This document shows positions 3,228 through 8,242 of a DNA stretch of 8,242 bases, one piece after another. Numbering within the stretch: position 1 is the stretch's first letter; every line of letters begins with the position of its first letter. The DNA comes from a virus (lineage: Duplodnaviria; Heunggongvirae; Uroviricota; Caudoviricetes). Location: IMG/VR virus record IMGVR_UViG_2802429231_000003. The stretch is one strand, 5' to 3'. The notes under the pieces were generated by a model. That model worked only from the letters and a program-made list of their open reading frames with translations. It searched no databases and had not been told where the DNA came from. A program made the position numbers and the translations under genes.

Positions 3228-3425
3228 TTATGCTGCTGGTGGTGTAACGGTAAATCCGGCTATTTTTGCCGCTTCCAGAAAACCTTCCAGGTTACTGACA
3301 AACTCGTTTTTCTGTAGCGTATAGCCGCCTGTGGCTGTGCCTTTTTCCACGTTAACCAGGACAGGTCCGGTGAAGTCCGGTCGCGCCGGAATGGTAACTG
3401 TGAAGGTCAGGGAGTGATTATGCAT
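3228..3425 (-). CDS. Hypothetical small protein (65 aa)
   Basis: ATG at 3423-3425 preceded by GGAGG; ATG overlaps the upstream gene stop (ATGCATAA). The longer track ORF to 3491 would need a non-ATG start and overlap the upstream gene by about 70 nt. Confidence 0.6.
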   Translation of the reverse strand: MHNHSLTFTVTIPARPDFTGPVLVNVEKGTATGGYTLQKNEFVSNLEGFLEAAKIAGFTVTPPAA

Positions 3426-3960
3426 GGTCTGCCTCCACATACGCGACACCCGCCACATCAAGCGCCTGTTTAAAACGGCAAAGCATTTCACGGCGTTCGC
3501 GGTACAGGGCCAGCACGAAGGGATCGAGTGTGGCTTCGATATCGGCAGGATAGCGACGGACGAAAGGCAGAAGGACGACGCCCTGACAGCGGTGTGGCGT
3601 GGAGGATTTCACCTGGTCAGCCAGCATATTCACCAGGTCATGTAACAGCCCGGTAAGCGGCTGGATCATGTCACGGGGCAATGTATCGGCCACCAGCGCC
3701 TTTGCCAGCGTGAGGCAGTATTCCAGCGTCAGGCTTTCATCAGGCCAGTACTCTGACAGATCGGATGCGGTATTGTCCGGCAGGGGAAGCGCCGTATCCG
3801 CATGGTATGCCGCTGTCAGTGCCTCCAGTGAGGTGACAAGGGATTTGCACATCGCCCGGTGTTCAGTGCGGCTGTGGTATTCCATCAGCCTGCACACCAG
3901 CGCGGCGCACTCACCTGCCAGATGAAACAGGTCAGCGCCTGCGGGGATCGGCTTATTCAT
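3418..3960 (-). CDS. Hypothetical protein (180 aa), member of the replication operon
   Basis: C-terminal 180 codons of the 619-aa track ORF; ATG at 3958-3960 preceded by a G-rich RBS and overlapping the upstream gene stop (ATGAATAA); the remaining 5' part of the track ORF is low-complexity antisense of the plus-strand genes. Confidence 0.65.
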   Translation of the reverse strand: MNKPIPAGADLFHLAGECAALVCRLMEYHSRTEHRAMCKSLVTSLEALTAAYHADTALPLPDNTASDLSEYWPDESLTLEYCLTLAKALVADTLPRDMIQPLTGLLHDLVNMLADQVKSSTPHRCQGVVLLPFVRRYPADIEATLDPFVLALYRERREMLCRFKQALDVAGVAYVEADHA

Positions 3961-4150
3961 GATGCGCCCCCGTAGCGGGCAGACGTCCAGCGAAGAAGCA
4001 GACACTTTCCCGCGCAAGCTGGCGGCGGGCTTCATGCTCGCTATCTGCGGCGATATGGTGGATTTTTGCGGTGATAGTCGGGCAATCGCGGCGAACGGCA
4101 GCGATAAGCCAGATGAATCGCGGGTGTGACGGGGTAAGGGTAGCGACCAT
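3953..4150 (-). CDS. Hypothetical small protein (65 aa), first gene of the replication operon
   Basis: ATG at 4148-4150 with GAGG about 9 nt upstream; stop overlaps next gene start; position analogous to kil-like first genes of the P4 left operon (analogy only). Confidence 0.55.
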   Translation of the reverse strand: MVATLTPSHPRFIWLIAAVRRDCPTITAKIHHIAADSEHEARRQLARESVCFFAGRLPATGAHHE

Positions 4151-4314
4151 AGCGGTGGCCTCGTGAGTAGGTTTATTAACCTCACCAGACCGCTGCTAAA
4201 CGGGGTGGTGAGACGTAACAGGGTTAGCAGACCGGCACTCACGAAACCGGCAGGCGCGAACGCCTCCCCGTTACGCCCCACCATAATACGGACGCAACAT
4301 GGCATTTTACGGAC

Positions 4315-4346
4315 AAAAAAAGACCGCGTTACAGAATGGTCGCGGT
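4315..4346 (-). terminator. Putative intrinsic terminator in the leader of the replication operon (minus strand)
   Basis: Minus-strand RNA ACCGCG-(12 nt loop)-CGCGGU followed by C and seven U (top-strand A run 4315-4321); lies between the divergent promoter region and the first operon gene. Confidence 0.45.
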
Positions 4347-4404
4347 TGTCCGCGCGAGTATTCAGGCTGCTAAACCCGGCCAGTGGATTTACACCAGCGG
4401 GAAA

Positions 4405-4434
4405 AGCATAGCGCCGGGCGGCAGTGTCAGGCAA
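4405..4434 (-). promoter_or_regulatory. Candidate sigma70-type promoter for the leader/replication operon
   Basis: On minus strand TTGCCT (top 4434-4429), 18-nt spacer, TATGCT (top 4410-4405); each hexamer is only a 4/6 match. Confidence 0.2.
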
Positions 4435-4445
4435 GGGATTTTTTT

Positions 4446-4480
4446 GTGATGTAATCACTTTCATCAGTACGTTACTGATG
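4446..4480. promoter_or_regulatory. Two adjacent operator-like dyads upstream of the plus-strand two-gene module
   Basis: GTGAT-gta-ATCAC (4446-4458) and CATCAGTA-cgt-TACTGATG (4462-4480), the latter with perfect 8-bp arms; just upstream of TATGAT (4482-4487) and the RBS AAGGAGAGG. Confidence 0.35.
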
Positions 4481-4512
4481 TTATGATTTACATCAACAAG
4501 GAGAGGCAAATT

Positions 4513-4794
4513 ATGTCTGCTGTTGAGTTGATGAACCGACGGATTCAGATTGCGGATAATGCTTTCGCCATCATCCGCATCTTGCAGGTTGACCCGTCCA
4601 TTCTCGGTAGCCAGCATCTGTATAAATACAGTCTGGCCTATATTGTGGATGGCGTCTGCGTGATGCGCTACGACAACGAACGGGGAAATGGCGACCACAA
4701 ACACATTGGCGATCGTGAATTTCCGGTCACGTTCACCAGCATACAAGACCTGATAGCCAGCTTTCAGGAAGATATCAACCATCTGAGGAGATGA
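4513..4794 (+). CDS. Small protein (93 aa), possible toxin-like partner of a two-gene module (tentatively TumE/DUF6516-like)
   Basis: ATG at 4513 preceded by AAGGAGAGG; motif RYDNERGNGDHKH; followed 4 nt later by an HTH gene with its own RBS. Family assignment is from memory of the motif and unverified. Confidence 0.65.
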   Translation: MSAVELMNRRIQIADNAFAIIRILQVDPSILGSQHLYKYSLAYIVDGVCVMRYDNERGNGDHKHIGDREFPVTFTSIQDLIASFQEDINHLRR

Positions 4795-4798
4795 CATT

Positions 4799-5158
4799 AT
4801 GAGAGTGTTAACCGTCAGGATTATGTCTATCGCCGATGCTTTCCAGACAACGATGGAAGATGCCACTCGCGCTATGTCAGGCGTGGTTGTTGGATCTGAT
4901 TTGATATTCCCCAGCGTTGAGCAGCTTGCCAAAACGATGCTTGCGCCCAATCGCTGGCAAATTATCAGAGTGATGAAAGGTGCAAAACCCGTTTCTATTC
5001 GTGAGCTGGCCCGTCTGGTAAATCGCGATTTTCGCGGTGTATACAACGATGTACAGGCACTGTTGAACGGCGGCGTTCTGGATCGGGATGGCGATAAAAT
5101 CGTATTACCGTATGACCGCGTACACATTGAGTTTAATTCGGACGACGCCGCAGCGTAA
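4799..5158 (+). CDS. Winged helix-turn-helix DNA-binding protein (119 aa), putative regulator/antitoxin-like partner
   Basis: GGAG RBS 9 nt upstream; HTH-like segment PVSIRELARLVNRDFRGVYNDVQALL followed by a wing-like segment; strong terminator downstream. Confidence 0.7.
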   Translation: MRVLTVRIMSIADAFQTTMEDATRAMSGVVVGSDLIFPSVEQLAKTMLAPNRWQIIRVMKGAKPVSIRELARLVNRDFRGVYNDVQALLNGGVLDRDGDKIVLPYDRVHIEFNSDDAAA

Positions 5159-5177
5159 CGGTACGAGGCGTTTATCG

Positions 5178-5209
5178 GGGCGTGGATATCCTCTGCGCCC
5201 TTTTTCTTT
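5178..5209 (+). terminator. Intrinsic terminator after the plus-strand two-gene module
   Basis: 9-bp stem 5178-5186/5192-5200 (two G-U wobbles), 5-nt loop, then TTTTTCTTT. Confidence 0.65.
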
Positions 5210-5273
5210 GTCCGTATGTCAACTTTTGACAGGTTGAGGCCAGACACGGGCAAGCTCTTATTCTGAATGCTTA

Positions 5274-6098
5274 TCATTGAACTACCTCCAGGCGACGGGC
5301 TAACCAGCGCTGAGACAGGCGCAGTAATTCTGTCTTGCGCTGGTGGTAGTCCTGCCTCAGTTCTATTAGCGTGATATTGGTCTGCTCAAGATAAGAAAGG
5401 TGATCGAGTTGTTCCTCGCTCATATGGTCGCGGGCTTCGCCGGTGATGCCGTTCGCCTGCGCCCACTGTTTCGCTGTCATTCCACCCAGCACGATCCGCG
5501 CCAGCATGTTCGATTCAGTTGTGTAGTGATGTGGTTGTGTGGCCTTGCCCTGTTCCTGCCTCACCACTTCCAGCGCGGCGCACATCGGCTTAAAGTAACT
5601 GGCGGCGGTGATACGGGCCTTAAGTTCTTTGCGCAGCGCAGCGGCTTTTAACGGGGCTTCCTGCTGTAATGTTTCCTCGCAGTGAATGAAGTAACGACGA
5701 ACGGCGCGGCCCTGCTCGTTGCGTTCGACCATCGCCAGCTCTTTAGCCATATTCAGCGAAAGCAAATACTCCCGGCTTCGTCTGTCCCCACCGCGTCTTG
5801 TTTCCCACGCCTTTCCATCATGGTTATTATTTGAGCTTTGATTCCTGAAATTTGAGGAATCAAAAAGGGTGTAGTCACTGTCAGCAATGAAACCATATTC
5901 CTCAATGCGGCCCTTAATCCATGTGGAAAAGTCATTTCCCACACCCAGCGCGGCATGTAACTCCTTTGCACTTACCACGCTGGCAGGCTGGCTACCGATA
6001 ATGCCGGAAATAACCGGGATGAGTTCGGCAAAATTATTCTGGTTATGGTTTTCAGGGTGAGCGATGCCCTGACCGTGAAGGCCATTAATTAATTTCAT
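5274..6098 (-). CDS. Phage antirepressor, AntA/AntB N-terminal domain family (274 aa)
   Basis: Segment YLLSLNMAKELAMVERNEQGRAVRRYFIHCEETL matches the conserved core of AntA/AntB antirepressors as recalled; AGGA RBS; 14 nt downstream of the preceding gene on the same strand. Confidence 0.75.
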   Translation of the reverse strand: MKLINGLHGQGIAHPENHNQNNFAELIPVISGIIGSQPASVVSAKELHAALGVGNDFSTWIKGRIEEYGFIADSDYTLFDSSNFRNQSSNNNHDGKAWETRRGGDRRSREYLLSLNMAKELAMVERNEQGRAVRRYFIHCEETLQQEAPLKAAALRKELKARITAASYFKPMCAALEVVRQEQGKATQPHHYTTESNMLARIVLGGMTAKQWAQANGITGEARDHMSEEQLDHLSYLEQTNITLIELRQDYHQRKTELLRLSQRWLARRLEVVQ

Positions 6099-6112: not shown

Positions 6113-6544
6113 TCAGGCGGCGTTCTGGTTATCCGGGTACATCATGAGGATGCTTTCGATAGTCTCCGGGGTAAGGCTCCAGTAGCCACCAGTACTGGCA
6201 CACTGATTGACCAGCTTAATGACCTTCATCACGTCCTCACGGCAGGCAAAGCGGTAGCGAAGATGTGCCCCTATACCATCGGCATTGGCTTCTTCTGAAC
6301 GCGCCAGGCAGATATCAAGGCGGCGCTCCAGTTCACTGGCGTAATTGCGGCCTGATGAAAGATGGCAGTGGCGCAGAATATCGTTTTCAGTCCAGCCACC
6401 AGCACCAGTGCAAAGCATATAAACGCGGGCGCGGTGCTTCTTCGGTGTGCGTCTCGCTTGTGTGCGGCTGGTGGTGGGGATAACATCAGACGGGCGAATA
6501 TCTGTGTTAGCCGCCTGCTGTTCGGGGCGGTTTTCTTTTTTCAT
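6113..6544 (-). CDS. Hypothetical protein (143 aa), co-transcribed with the AlpA-family gene
   Basis: ATG overlaps the AlpA gene stop (ATGA); basic N-terminal region; no recognisable domain. Confidence 0.6.
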   Translation of the reverse strand: MKKENRPEQQAANTDIRPSDVIPTTSRTQARRTPKKHRARVYMLCTGAGGWTENDILRHCHLSSGRNYASELERRLDICLARSEEANADGIGAHLRYRFACREDVMKVIKLVNQCASTGGYWSLTPETIESILMMYPDNQNAA

Positions 6545-6753
6545 TGCGCCACCTCGCCGCGTGATTCAAATACACGATCATTTATCCATTTATTAACTTC
6601 GTCTTCAAACCAACCAACACGGCGTAGGCCAATGCGAAATCCTCGCGGAAATTCGCCAGCGTTAATCATCTCCTGAAATGCGCTATCTGATTTAATACGT
6701 AAAATCATTTTTACTTCTTTTTTGAGAAGGATCTTTCTTTCTTCTGATGTCAT
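6541..6753 (-). CDS. alpA: AlpA/Vis-family phage transcriptional regulator (excisionase-like HTH), 70 aa from ATG
   Basis: Pattern ILLKKEVKMILRIKSDSAFQEMINAGEFPRGFRIGLRRVGWFEDEVNKWI resembles the AlpA-family HTH; the track ORF extends to 6771 only with a TTG start, so the first ATG (6751-6753) is preferred. Confidence 0.7.
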   Translation of the reverse strand: MTSEERKILLKKEVKMILRIKSDSAFQEMINAGEFPRGFRIGLRRVGWFEDEVNKWINDRVFESRGEVAQ

Positions 6754-6816
6754 TTGGTTAATCTCATTCAATACCGATTAATTCCGGCGGTGTAGGAATA
6801 CTGGCATGATGAGATA

Positions 6817-6886
6817 GGGTGAGGGCAACACTATTTGGGGTGAGGGTAGGTTACCGTGAGGGGCCGGGGTGGTTACCCTCACGGTA
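6817..6886. promoter_or_regulatory. G+C-rich repeat cluster and perfect 11-bp inverted repeat between the orphan gene and alpA
   Basis: GGTGAGGG at 6818-6825 and 6839-6846, CCGTGAGGGG at 6854-6863; inverted repeat TACCGTGAGGG (6852-6862) / CCCTCACGGTA (6876-6886) with 13-nt loop; no U tract follows on either strand. Confidence 0.4.
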
Positions 6887-6890
6887 GATG

Positions 6891-7619
6891 TTAAGCCACT
6901 TTTGATGGGGTGCGATCGATTGGGCAAGCGATTTTTTCGATAGCTTTGGCTGTCGATTCAACAAATCCGTAACTGGTTTTAAGCTCTGTAATTATGGCCT
7001 GCTGGTTAACTCTGGTGCCATTATTGTTAGGGTCATACTCTGCCCATTCACAATTCCTTATCCTGATAGCCTGATACAGAGGGTCTCTTTCTACGCCTCC
7101 GATAAACTTACCCAAGTGAAGAGGATACGATTTTTTTAAAACCTCAATATCTCTTTCTAGTGCGGTAATTTTATTCTTAAGTTCGGATATCTCTTGTGAC
7201 TCTTGATTTGTACGCGATGGCGGCTGTAATCCCACCTCGTAGGGGTGGTTAATTATAATGGCATTATATTCTGTGAACTCATTTTCAACCCAAGTCCAGA
7301 TGTCCTTTGCCAGAAAGTTAGCATCTACTATATGTGTGTTGATATTAATATTATCATTTTCAACTAAGCTTAGGATATCAATTGGGAGATCCCATGAAGG
7401 GTCAGAATATGTGTAAGCTTTCAGTGGGATAACTTCTTTCAATTTAATAGCTTGACATATAATTTCTTTAAATGATGAAGCTTCTTCATCGCTAATGTAG
7501 CCACTGATAATATTTGGATCAAGAGTATCGTACTCACCGGATAAGCCTGCCATAACTAAAGCTGCTTGCTCTAAAGTCACAATTCTGAGTCGTTTAATAT
7601 GGAAAGGTAAATCAATCAT
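6891..7619 (-). CDS. Hypothetical protein (242 aa) in a markedly A+T-rich gene; candidate accessory/cargo gene
   Basis: Intact ORF with GAGG RBS about 8 nt upstream; composition visibly much more A+T-rich than flanking genes; predicted coiled-coil-like segment (ESQEISELKNKITALERDIEVLKK); no recognisable domain. Confidence 0.7.
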   Translation of the reverse strand: MIDLPFHIKRLRIVTLEQAALVMAGLSGEYDTLDPNIISGYISDEEASSFKEIICQAIKLKEVIPLKAYTYSDPSWDLPIDILSLVENDNININTHIVDANFLAKDIWTWVENEFTEYNAIIINHPYEVGLQPPSRTNQESQEISELKNKITALERDIEVLKKSYPLHLGKFIGGVERDPLYQAIRIRNCEWAEYDPNNNGTRVNQQAIITELKTSYGFVESTAKAIEKIACPIDRTPSKVA

Positions 7620-7919
7620 TACGCCACCTCACGCCCTCTATCATGGAGGCCGCGCCAACCCGCAGAGGTGTACGGGAATTCGGGAGCTACCCTAGACGCG
7701 GCTTATTCTGTTACCGTCGGTTATCTTCGGTTTTGCCCATGATAGATCGTTTTCTGAACGCTTGCATTGCAAGACTGTGTGAATAATCAGCTTGTGTTTT
7801 TATACAGCTCTAATTCCTCTCATTCCTGTTGCTAGGGTCACTCCCGTGGATGCGGTTTCCACAAATTCCCCCCACCAGCGCATCAACACAATACGCTTTT
7901 CAAGATAGTTACTCCGGTT

Positions 7920-8242
7920 ATCAATTTGCGCGTAAGACCTCGCCCAATCGGGCGGGGATATAAGCGCGGTAACTGCGTAACATTTTTTGACCTTCGTCAA
8001 TATGGCTTACATTTTTCAGTGTATTTTGTAAGCCTATGAAACGCGCCTATAAATACAGATTCTATCCAACACCCGATCAGGTTGAGCTTTTGGCTCAAAC
8101 GTTCGGGTGTGTGCGTTTTGTCTATAACTCGATCCTGCGTTGGCGCACCGATGCGTACTACGAACGGCAGGAGAAGATCGGCTATACACAAGCCAGCGCT
8201 CGCTTAACAGCACTGAAAAAAGAGCCAGATTTTGCCTGGCTC
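7920..8242 (+). mobile_element. Left end of an IS200/IS605-family insertion sequence (tnpB-only type or tnpA lost), truncated by the window edge
   Basis: TnpB N-terminus begins at 8036; subterminal hairpin CGCCC-AATC-GGGCG at 7941-7954 (extendable to 7938-7957) about 80 bp upstream, consistent with an IS605-family left-end structure; left boundary approximate. Confidence 0.5.
8036..8242 (+). CDS. tnpB: IS200/IS605-family transposase accessory protein TnpB (OrfB), N-terminal 69 codons, partial
   Basis: Translation MKRAYKYRFYPTPDQVELLAQTFGCVRFVYNSILRW matches the conserved TnpB/OrfB N-terminus; in-frame stop at 7988-7990 upstream; ORF runs to the last base, so it is absent from the complete-ORF track. 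Confidence 0.8.
   Translation, partial: MKRAYKYRFYPTPDQVELLAQTFGCVRFVYNSILRWRTDAYYERQEKIGYTQASARLTALKKEPDFAWL

What the first reader, a model, noticed from the sequence alone, without database searches (positions are those of the whole stretch)
6891..7619. A+T-rich orphan gene (242 aa) between the satellite regulator and an IS element: candidate novel defence or accessory cargo
The gene is conspicuously more A+T-rich than every neighbouring gene, which marks separate and probably recent acquisition. It encodes a protein with no recognisable domain and a coiled-coil-like central segment. It occupies the variable slot next to alpA, next to an IS605-family element and bounded by a structured G+C-rich junction. 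Variable slots of P4-like satellites and PICIs are known to carry single-gene anti-phage systems.
Basis: partly seen in the sequence, partly recalled or inferred. Interest (0 to 1): 0.65.

Follow-up and report, generated by a model that had tools for sequence, protein, structure and literature searches.

The report
Modular regulator candidate between int and alpA
The "orphan" gene is one member of a shuffled-domain protein family that almost always sits between the integrase and the master activator alpA in this kind of phage satellite, and its tail domain predicts the DNA repeats in front of alpA, so it is more likely a DNA-binding regulator of the satellite than an anti-phage defence gene.

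Summary
The 242-aa ORF (6891-7619, minus strand) is real and under purifying selection (dN/dS 0.15-0.26). It is not an orphan. A profile search finds 130 cluster representatives, and its N-terminal and C-terminal modules occur independently.

Low GC is a property of this genomic slot in every related element, and alpA shares it, so it is not evidence of recent acquisition.

In an AlpA-anchored survey, 84 of 86 loci carry a co-oriented gene of this kind between int and alpA. The "G+C-rich junction" is Rfam RF02996 (int-alpA RNA), which ends 13-20 nt before the slot gene's start codon.

Each element has 4-6 short repeats between the slot gene and alpA. The repeat sequence tracks the slot protein's C-terminal module, not AlpA, integrase, primase or the N-module. 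For X-type modules the repeat is TACCCTnAGGGTA; the window has four GTGAGGG copies in 64 nt.

Best reading: a coiled-coil, sequence-specific DNA-binding regulator acting at the alpA control region. DNA binding and the sign of regulation are inferred, not shown.

No known defence gene occupies this slot in about 50 non-redundant cases. EcCICFT073 lacks the gene, so it is lineage-specific, not universal.

The parts
6891..7619 (-). Slot gene X, 242 aa: N-module (residues 1-118), disordered linker (119-136), coiled-coil helix (137-164), C-terminal helical module (about 170-236)
   Evidence: ORF. dN/dS 0.20 against the Salmonella homologue and 0.26 against the Dickeya homologue. AF2 full-length model, pLDDT 73.9.
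7266..7619 (-). N-terminal alpha/beta module (residues 1-118). Found with at least four different C-terminal types. Weak structural resemblance to MerR/excisionase-type winged helix.
6894..7211 (-). C-module: coiled coil plus three-helix domain with signature DPLxxAIxIRNxEWxxYD ... AxAIExVACPIxR. Invariant W192, E228, C232, P233, R236.
7624..7630 (-). Shine-Dalgarno-like GAGGTGG, 4 nt before the ATG at 7619
   Evidence: Read from the sequence. Conserved as GAGGTG in the leaders of other loci.
7635..7702 (-). Rfam RF02996 int-alpA RNA motif, acting here as the 5' leader of the slot gene. It ends 15 nt before the ATG.
   Evidence: 43.1 bits against a gathering score of 35.8. The same motif lies 13-20 nt upstream of the slot gene in 14 other loci, whatever the slot protein type. 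The closing stem covaries between loci.
6819..6886 (.). Cluster of four GTGAGGG sites between the stop codon of X and alpA. Includes TACCGTGAGGGTA (6874-6886), which is the family palindrome TACCCTnAGGGTA with one mismatch, and an 11-bp perfect inverted repeat (6852-6862 / 6876-6886). Proposed binding sites of X's C-module.
   Evidence: These are the only four exact GTGAGGG copies in the window (expected 0.84), all within 64 nt. The chance of such clustering is about 2e-6. Inverted repeat. The palindrome recurs in other loci with the X-type C-module.
6541..6771 (-). alpA (76 aa), master activator of Gram-negative PICI-type satellites and the proposed regulatory target
   Evidence: PF05930, E = 1.8e-8. 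Role of AlpA from PMC6092414.
7800..7925 (-). Remnant of a P4-type tyrosine integrase (last ~41 codons), truncated by the IS
   Evidence: NF007246 positions 372-412 of 413. Megablast to an E. coli integrase at window 7858-7919. Intact 413-aa integrases occupy this position in relatives.
7918..8242 (.). End of an IS200/IS605-family element (TnpB/InsQ) that has destroyed the integrase gene
   Evidence: 96.6-100% identical to annotated InsQ/TnpB genes in three E. coli records.

Best explanation
X is the local representative of a mosaic protein family. This family fills a fixed position between the integrase gene and alpA in AlpA-type, PICI-like phage satellites of Enterobacterales.

The protein is built from exchangeable modules: an N-terminal alpha/beta module, a coiled coil that probably dimerises it, and a small C-terminal helical module.

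The most likely mechanism is that the coiled-coil dimer binds, through the C-terminal module, to the 4-6 iterated or palindromic sites that lie between its own stop codon and alpA. For X-type modules the site is TACCCTnAGGGTA. By binding there it would set the expression of alpA, the satellite's master activator. The exchangeable N-module would provide the input, such as a partner protein from the helper phage or host, or a second DNA contact. The Rfam int-alpA RNA motif is the gene's 5' leader.

Shown: the gene is real and under purifying selection; its position and RNA leader are conserved; the modules are exchanged between proteins; the repeats exist and cluster; and the repeat type tracks the C-module type.

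Inferred: DNA binding itself, that alpA is the target, and whether the effect is repression (like Stl of SaPIs) or activation.
For: 1. Fixed context. All 19 loci found through X homologues have int, then the slot gene, then alpA on one strand. In a survey anchored on AlpA rather than the slot protein, 84 of 86 loci have an 843-2062 nt gap holding a co-oriented ORF.

2. Covariation.
- AlpA type 1 proteins (73-86% identical, with an identical recognition region in the window and L005) sit behind three different repeat types. AlpA type 2 proteins (69-85% identical) also sit behind three.
- The X-type N-module occurs with four repeat types.
- Integrases 80-99% identical, and primases 76-85% identical (83% in the C-terminal 200 aa), go with different repeats. 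L012 has an unrelated primase C-terminus but the same repeat core as the window.
- Only the slot C-module tracks the repeat. Palindromes with at most 2 mismatches number 24 in about 1.75 kb of spacer from nine X-type loci, 6 in about 83 kb elsewhere, and 0 in six control spacers.
- In the dereplicated AlpA-anchored set, 12 of 13 close X-type loci have at least two palindromes, against 2 of 30 non-X-type loci (Fisher p = 7e-8). Both exceptions proved to encode X-type modules.

3. The palindrome is kept between C-modules only 44-67% identical whose spacers are otherwise unalignable and whose N-modules differ. In L039, L040 and L064 the C-module is a separate gene and the palindromes are still there.

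4. Other slot classes have their own perfect palindromes: ACCGCAATTGCGGT, GCATGCA x4 and TCCGGAA x4. That pattern is typical of operators for dimeric regulators.

5. The architecture (small domains plus coiled coil, no catalytic motif) suits a regulator. No sigma-70-like promoter is detectable in the spacer, which fits the activator-dependent alpA promoter reported in PMC6092414.

6. That paper states that a global repressor of Gram-negative PICIs is unidentified and that the route by which the helper phage induces alpA is unknown.
Against: - No direct evidence of DNA binding.
- The DNA encoding the C-module is physically adjacent to the repeats, so part of the covariation could reflect co-inheritance of a recombination block.
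- The gene is co-oriented with alpA and has no terminator between them. That differs from the divergent repressor layout of SaPIs.
- EcCICFT073, which is helper-inducible, has no slot gene and no RF02996. Two of 86 surveyed loci also lack the gene. It therefore cannot be the general switch of Gram-negative PICIs.
- Seven divergent X-type members lack the consensus palindrome. That fits diverged specificity, but it is an assumption.
Confidence: 0.5

Rival explanations
1. X is a single-gene anti-phage defence, superinfection-exclusion or abortive-infection protein carried as cargo in a variable slot of the satellite.
For: Satellites do carry defence genes at hotspots next to int (PMC13586616). 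The slot content is swapped between near-identical elements (L001 against L005). The gene is A+T-rich and uncharacterised. Rapid module shuffling is also seen in conflict systems.
Against: No PADLOC hit for X or for 18 unclassified slot proteins, and no known defence gene in about 50 non-redundant fillings. The slot always holds one gene of common architecture, or the same modules split, behind the same RNA leader. There is no enzymatic, toxin or membrane domain. The C-module tracks adjacent DNA repeats, which a defence effector would not need. Low GC is slot-wide, not a mark of recent acquisition. The described hotspots lie elsewhere.
Confidence: 0.15
2. The repeats are a replication origin (iterons) or a centromere-like site. 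X would then be an origin-binding or partition adaptor for the replicating satellite, analogous to pSK1 Par or RacA (winged helix plus coiled coil) or to Rep-iteron pairs.
Confidence: 0.12
3. X is an accessory recombination-directionality or architectural factor of the integrase/AlpA module. It would shape excision or int expression rather than alpA transcription.
For: It is invariably adjacent to int. The N-module weakly resembles excisionase-type winged helices, such as Pukovnik Xis and the GIsul2 AlpA-family excisionase. AlpA-family proteins act as excisionases in some elements (PMC11773190).
Against: The repeats lie 1-2 kb from the att core, beyond int, which is not where arm-type sites lie. 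Repeat type does not follow the integrase. There is no sequence-level similarity to excisionases.
Confidence: 0.08

Closest known systems
Stl / Rpr master repressors of SaPIs and Gram-positive PICIs
   Same: Encoded next to int in a phage satellite. Modular, with a DNA-binding part and highly variable partner-sensing parts. Specificity differs between otherwise similar islands. Proposed here to act on the control region of the gene that starts the satellite cycle.
   Different: No sequence or fold similarity was detected. X is co-oriented with its presumed target instead of divergent. The presumed DNA-binding module is C-terminal and is not a recognisable helix-turn-helix. The target would be an activator gene (alpA). 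Repression and anti-repression by a phage protein are untested. The gene is absent from EcCICFT073.
Rfam RF02996 int-alpA RNA motif (Weinberg et al. 2017 candidate structured RNAs; typed as sRNA in Rfam)
   Same: The window's G+C-rich junction scores above the family's gathering threshold and lies between int and alpA, as the family name implies.
   Different: In all 15 loci examined here the motif is not next to alpA. It lies 13-20 nt upstream of the start codon of the slot gene, whatever protein type that gene encodes. This suggests a cis-acting leader of that gene rather than a free-standing sRNA. I found no text on the motif in the paper's main body.
Bro-N / KilA-N / ANT domain-shuffling network of phage and satellite DNA-binding regulators (the 'Bro zone' of Gram-negative PICIs, PMC10111431)
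   Same: Extensive shuffling of small modules among regulators of mobile elements. The window has a member of that network just downstream (AntA, 5274-6098).
   Different: X and its relatives contain none of the network's Pfam domains. They lie in the 'integration zone' upstream of alpA, which that paper lists as containing only Int and AlpA/HTH_17.
pSK1 Par and RacA (MerR-type winged helix plus coiled coil DNA-organising proteins)
   Different: In those proteins the N-terminal winged helix reads the repeats. Here the repeats track the C-terminal module. The scores are too low to claim homology.
PF19924 DUF6387
   Same: Occupies the same int-alpA slot in 6 of 18 otherwise unclassified loci, on the same strand and of similar size.
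   Different: No detectable similarity to X. Also of unknown function.

Membership tests
Known anti-phage defence systems (PADLOC-DB 2.0) | Sequence match to a protein of a described or candidate defence system | tested here: not met
   No hit for X at E <= 1. No hit for 18 other slot proteins.
Satellite defence hotspot cargo | Position whose content varies in gene number and kind and frequently includes recognisable defence systems | tested here: not met
   84 of 86 loci hold one gene, or the same modules split in two, of 100-383 aa with a shared leader. Among about 50 non-redundant fillings, none is a known defence gene. The hotspots described in the literature lie elsewhere.
Satellite defence hotspot cargo | Confers resistance to phage infection | not testable with these tools
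   Needs cloning and a phage challenge.
MerR / excisionase (Xis, AlpA, HTH_17) winged-helix superfamily (N-module) | Profile match to a family model | tested here: not met
   No Pfam or NCBIfam hit. hhalign of a 44-sequence N-module alignment against AlpA gives probability 1%.
MerR / excisionase (Xis, AlpA, HTH_17) winged-helix superfamily (N-module) | Fold match | tested here: inconclusive
Sequence-specific operator-binding regulator (functional class) | Cognate repeated or palindromic sites in a control region that change when the DNA-reading module changes | tested here: met
   Repeat type tracks the C-module type and not AlpA, Int, primase or the N-module.
Sequence-specific operator-binding regulator (functional class) | Recognisable DNA-binding fold and demonstrated binding | tested here: inconclusive
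   The C-module model is confident (pLDDT 92.3) but has no clear structural relative. Binding itself cannot be tested here.
Stl-like satellite master repressor | Divergently transcribed from the operon it represses | tested here: not met
   X is co-oriented with alpA in every locus.
Stl-like satellite master repressor | Repression relieved by binding a helper-phage protein | not testable with these tools
   Only indirect hints: at least 26 alternative N-modules and SSB-tail mimics in some relatives.
Rfam RF02996 int-alpA RNA | Covariance-model score at or above the gathering threshold, located between int and alpA | tested here: met
   43.1 bits against 35.8 at 7635-7702 (-).
Rep/primase-iteron origin | Iteron sequence matched to the element's initiator or primase | tested here: not met
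   Primases 76-85% identical go with different repeats. An unrelated primase C-terminus goes with the same repeat core.
Bro-N / KilA-N / ANT network | Contains at least one of the network's defining domains | tested here: not met
   None found in X, in 118 relatives or in 27 other slot proteins.

The most novel reading that the evidence does not exclude
The int-alpA slot proteins are the missing input layer of AlpA-type Gram-negative satellites. Each would be a dimeric regulator whose C-module holds the alpA control region through element-specific operators. Its exchangeable N-module, of which there are at least 26 kinds (some ending in a copy of the SSB C-terminal tail), would sense a particular helper-phage or host protein, so that a module swap re-targets the satellite to a new helper. 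On this reading the orphan Rfam motif RF02996 is the cis-acting leader that controls this regulator.
Probability: 0.25. Interest if true: 0.8.

Novelty: new variant of a known kind. Interest (0 to 1): 0.58.

Why it matters
How Gram-negative PICI-type satellites stay silent, and how a helper phage switches on alpA, was described as unknown in the founding paper (PMC6092414). I found no later answer in the searchable literature.

A near-universal, module-shuffling gene directly upstream of alpA has not been named in the published zone models of these elements. Its tail module predicts the operator-like repeats in the alpA control region. That makes it a concrete and easily testable candidate for part of the switch.

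The finding also gives a genomic role to an orphan Rfam motif (RF02996), as the leader of this gene. It defines two uncharacterised protein modules with clear signatures that could be added to family databases.

For annotation it is a caution: low GC and 'no domain' next to an integrase do not by themselves indicate defence cargo.

Tried and rejected
- **Domain libraries for X.** Pfam, PHROGs, NCBIfam and PADLOC gave nothing.
- **PDB sequence search with the C-module profile.** Only coiled-coil noise.
- **hhalign.** N-module against AlpA, X-type against C2-type C-modules, and N-module against C-module all gave no relationship.
- **tblastn of X against 50,697 phage records.** No match.
- **Second word-indexed protein search, using the C-module profile.** Only two new proteins.
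- **Pattern retrieval with the broad C-module alignment.** It worked after narrowing the alignment.
- **AlpA as the binder of the repeats.** Rejected: identical AlpA recognition regions go with different repeats.
- **Integrase arm sites.** Rejected on distance from att and lack of covariation.
- **Primase iterons.** Rejected.
- **EcCIMP1_002 as a characterised counterpart.** It is a tiny unrelated ORF.
- **c1499 and c1500 of EcCICFT073.** These are capsid-like genes elsewhere in the island.
- **The inverted repeat after the stop codon as an intrinsic terminator.** It has no T-run, and the same motif recurs as non-hairpin copies.
- **Promoter assignment in the X-alpA spacer.** The consensus scan found none. 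My manual candidates were unconvincing, so the sign of regulation is left open.

Full report
**1. What is at the coordinates**

The window carries, on its minus strand, the left part of a small integrative element. Its order is:
- an IS200/IS605-type element (TnpB, about 7918-8242);
- the last ~41 codons of a P4-type tyrosine integrase that the IS has truncated (7800-7925);
- a structured G+C-rich segment;
- the 242-aa ORF X (7619-6891);
- alpA (6771-6541, PF05930);
- a 143-aa ORF;
- an AntA-family gene;
- a C4/isrK antisense-RNA immunity region;
- DUF4222;
- a DUF927 primase.

This matches the four-zone layout (integration, Bro, replication, late) described for Gram-negative PICIs (PMC10111431). 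X has GC 0.38 and matches nothing in Pfam, PHROGs, NCBIfam or PADLOC. alpA is just as A+T-rich. The gene is not an orphan. Its upstream neighbour is the integrase remnant, not the IS.

**2. The gene is real and belongs to a modular family**

Close homologues (41-99% identical) occur in Salmonella, Dickeya, Pectobacterium, Klebsiella and Escherichia. dN/dS is 0.20 against the Salmonella copy and 0.26 against the Dickeya copy, and 0.13-0.20 in the C-terminal part.

An exhaustive profile search over 1.84 billion representatives found 130 proteins at E <= 1e-3. Of these, 29 have both halves of X, 37 have only the N-terminal module and 74 have only the C-terminal module. The C-terminal module always lies at the extreme C-terminus. 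It is combined with at least 26 unrelated N-terminal modules among 89 representatives. None of 118 relatives has a Pfam domain.

AlphaFold2 gives three parts:
- an alpha/beta N-module (residues 1-118);
- a disordered linker;
- a long helix (137-164) followed by a three-helix C-terminal domain. Modelled alone with 35 diverse sequences, this C-module reaches pLDDT 92.3.

The C-module has a sharp signature, DPLxxAIxIRNxEWxxYD ... AxAIExVACPIxR, with W192, E228, C232, P233 and R236 invariant.

**3. The position is fixed; the content is mosaic**

Every locus retrieved through X homologues and long enough to judge (19 of 19) reads tRNA, int, slot gene, alpA on one strand. Because that set is biased, I also retrieved loci through AlpA alone. 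Of 86 loci with an upstream integrase, 84 have an 843-2062 nt gap holding a co-oriented ORF, and 2 have a short empty gap.

E. coli elements found through other parts of the window also have a 251-307 aa gene there. The slot gene is A+T-rich in all 14 loci measured (GC 0.38-0.45, GC3 0.26-0.40, against 0.47-0.55 for int), whatever protein it encodes. Low GC is therefore a property of the slot, not a mark of recent arrival.

The experimentally studied EcCICFT073 has only 365 nt between int and alpA, with no slot gene. The gene is therefore lineage-specific and not required for helper induction in general.

**4. The G+C-rich junction is RF02996 and acts as the gene's leader**

The segment 7635-7702 (-) matches Rfam's int-alpA RNA (43.1 bits, gathering score 35.8). 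The same motif is present in 14 further loci. It always ends 13-20 nt before the slot gene's start codon, with a GAGGTG Shine-Dalgarno sequence between. This holds whether the slot protein is X-type, L012-type, L013-type, L011-type or split into two genes. Its closing stem covaries between loci.

Loci with only -4 to 68 nt between int and the slot gene lack the motif. Rfam types it as an sRNA. Its placement here argues for a cis-acting leader of the slot gene.

**5. The key finding: repeats before alpA track the slot protein's C-module**

Between the slot gene's stop codon and alpA, each element has 4-6 copies of a short repeat or palindrome. The sequence differs between elements.

In the window, the only four exact GTGAGGG copies in 8.2 kb (0.84 expected) lie within 6819-6882. 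The first site after the stop codon, TACCGTGAGGGTA, is the palindrome TACCCTnAGGGTA with one mismatch.

Pairwise identity matrices and a primase comparison show what the repeat type does not follow:
- **AlpA.** Type 1 proteins are 73-86% identical, with identical recognition regions in the window and L005, yet sit behind three repeat types. Type 2 proteins, 69-85% identical, also sit behind three.
- **The integrase.**
- **The primase.** The window's primase is 85% identical to L005's, and L012 has an unrelated primase C-terminus but the window's repeat core.
- **The N-module.**

The repeat type does follow the C-module:
- The X-type goes with TACCCTnAGGGTA or its GAGGGTA half-site.
- The C2-type goes with ACTTCCA or CTACCAA variants.
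- Other classes have their own palindromes: ACCGCAATTGCGGT, GCATGCA and TCCGGAA.

Independent X-type loci from metagenomes and IMG/VR have C-modules only 44-67% identical, at least four different N-modules and otherwise unalignable spacers. All carry the palindrome. Palindromes with at most 2 mismatches number 24 in about 1.75 kb of X-type spacers, 6 in about 83 kb elsewhere, and none in six control spacers.

In the dereplicated AlpA-anchored set, 12 of 13 close X-type loci have at least two palindromes, against 2 of 30 non-X-type loci (Fisher p = 7e-8). Both exceptions turned out to encode X-type modules that my largest-ORF shortcut had missed. In L039, L040 and L064 the coiled coil plus C-module is a separate gene, and the palindromes are still present.

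**6. Interpretation**

The simplest account is that the coiled-coil dimer reads these sites through its C-module and thereby acts on the alpA control region. The exchangeable N-module would supply the input.

This fits the literature. AlpA is the master activator. It is switched on by the helper phage through an unknown route, and no global repressor has been identified in Gram-negative PICIs (PMC6092414).

Several things are not shown. DNA binding itself is untested. The sign of regulation is unknown, and I could not place a promoter: the consensus scan finds none in the spacer. Part of the covariation could reflect physical linkage of the C-module coding DNA and the spacer. The retention of the palindrome across diverged proteins and unalignable spacers argues for function. 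I put this explanation at about 0.5.

**7. The defence reading**

Nothing supports it. There is no PADLOC match for X or for 18 unclassified slot proteins. Six of those are DUF6387, another family of unknown function. There is no enzymatic or toxin domain. The slot has a constant single-gene architecture with a conserved leader. The published hotspots lie elsewhere. The defence reading cannot be excluded without a phage challenge; I give it about 0.15. The origin/partition and recombination-accessory rivals are weaker, for the reasons listed under rival explanations.

**8. A lead on the N-side**

In the three split loci the N-module protein ends in ...PPMDFDDDIPF. Three representatives with the X-type N-module also end in ...DDIPF. 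This is the same kind of acidic D-F-x-D-D-x-P-F tail that ends the SSB genes carried by these elements. From memory, it is identical to the E. coli SSB C-terminal peptide that recruits replication and recombination proteins. X itself has no such tail. It hints that the non-DNA-linked half of these proteins talks to SSB-tail clients.

**9. Verdict**

The finding is not a recently acquired orphan defence gene. It is one member of an unnamed, near-universal, module-shuffling gene family of the int-alpA region of AlpA-type satellites. It has a known but unexplained RNA motif as its leader and operator-like sites that match its C-module. The function is inferred, but it is directly testable.

Noticed in passing
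window 4201-4411 (-): P4/P1-type antisense immunity region: C4 antisense RNA (4201-4288, 79.3 bits), isrK-like RNA (4317-4398, 41.6 bits, below the gathering score of 50) and c4-a1b1 target sites (4359-4411). The same trio recurs in most related elements.
   Followed up: partly
window 4483-5158 (+): A TumE toxin (PF20126) / HVO_A0114 (PF25212) gene pair lies on the opposite strand, between the AntA gene and the C4 region. It is present in the Salmonella relative L001 but absent from L004 and L005. This pair, not X, looks like true variable cargo in the window.
   Followed up: partly
window 7800-8242: The satellite's integrase is reduced to its last ~41 codons by an IS200/IS605-type (TnpB) insertion or an associated deletion. 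This copy of the element can probably no longer excise by itself.
   Followed up: partly
L039:~2440-2810, L040:~2440-2808, L064:~2425-2808; proteins P0049, P0073, P0114: Slot-encoded proteins that end in ...PPMDFDDDIPF or ...DDIPF, a copy of the acidic C-terminal tail of SSB. In the three loci the slot is split into an N-module gene with this tail and a separate gene for the coiled coil plus C-module.
   Followed up: partly
L066:8161-8525 (E. coli CFT073, NC_004431.1 1379160-1379524): EcCICFT073 has no slot gene and no RF02996 between int and alpA. It has six 10-bp-phased ACAAC-type direct repeats just after int, and similar ACAC/ACAAC repeats just before alpA. What binds them is unknown.
   Followed up: no
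L012:10041-10100 (-), L014:~5800-5845, L015/L017:~5710-5752, L040, L064 (5' UTR of type-2 alpA): A conserved inverted repeat ACCTCGT...ACGAGGT immediately upstream of type-2 alpA start codons would pair with and hide the Shine-Dalgarno sequence (GAGGT). A TGCCA-containing element 55-70 nt upstream of alpA is shared by both AlpA types. This suggests extra translational and transcriptional control of alpA.
   Followed up: no
window 5274-6098 (-): The C-terminal part (residues 178-263) of the AntA-family protein matches the PADLOC candidate defence model PDC-S22 (E = 2.4e-9).
   Followed up: no
L070-L156 (six of 18 unclassified slot proteins): PF19924 (DUF6387) proteins occupy the same int-alpA slot in other elements. 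This gives that domain of unknown function a defined genomic context.
   Followed up: no
L001:8579-9820: In the Salmonella relative that carries the closest named homologue of X, the integrase is split into 131-aa and 275-aa ORFs (frameshift). The element has also lost its primase and gained an LRR/NEL effector gene, so it is another decaying copy.
   Followed up: no
window 3418-5277 (-): A 619-aa ORF listed mechanically overlaps the TumE pair and the RNA genes on the other strand and has an implausible composition. It is almost certainly not a gene.
   Followed up: no
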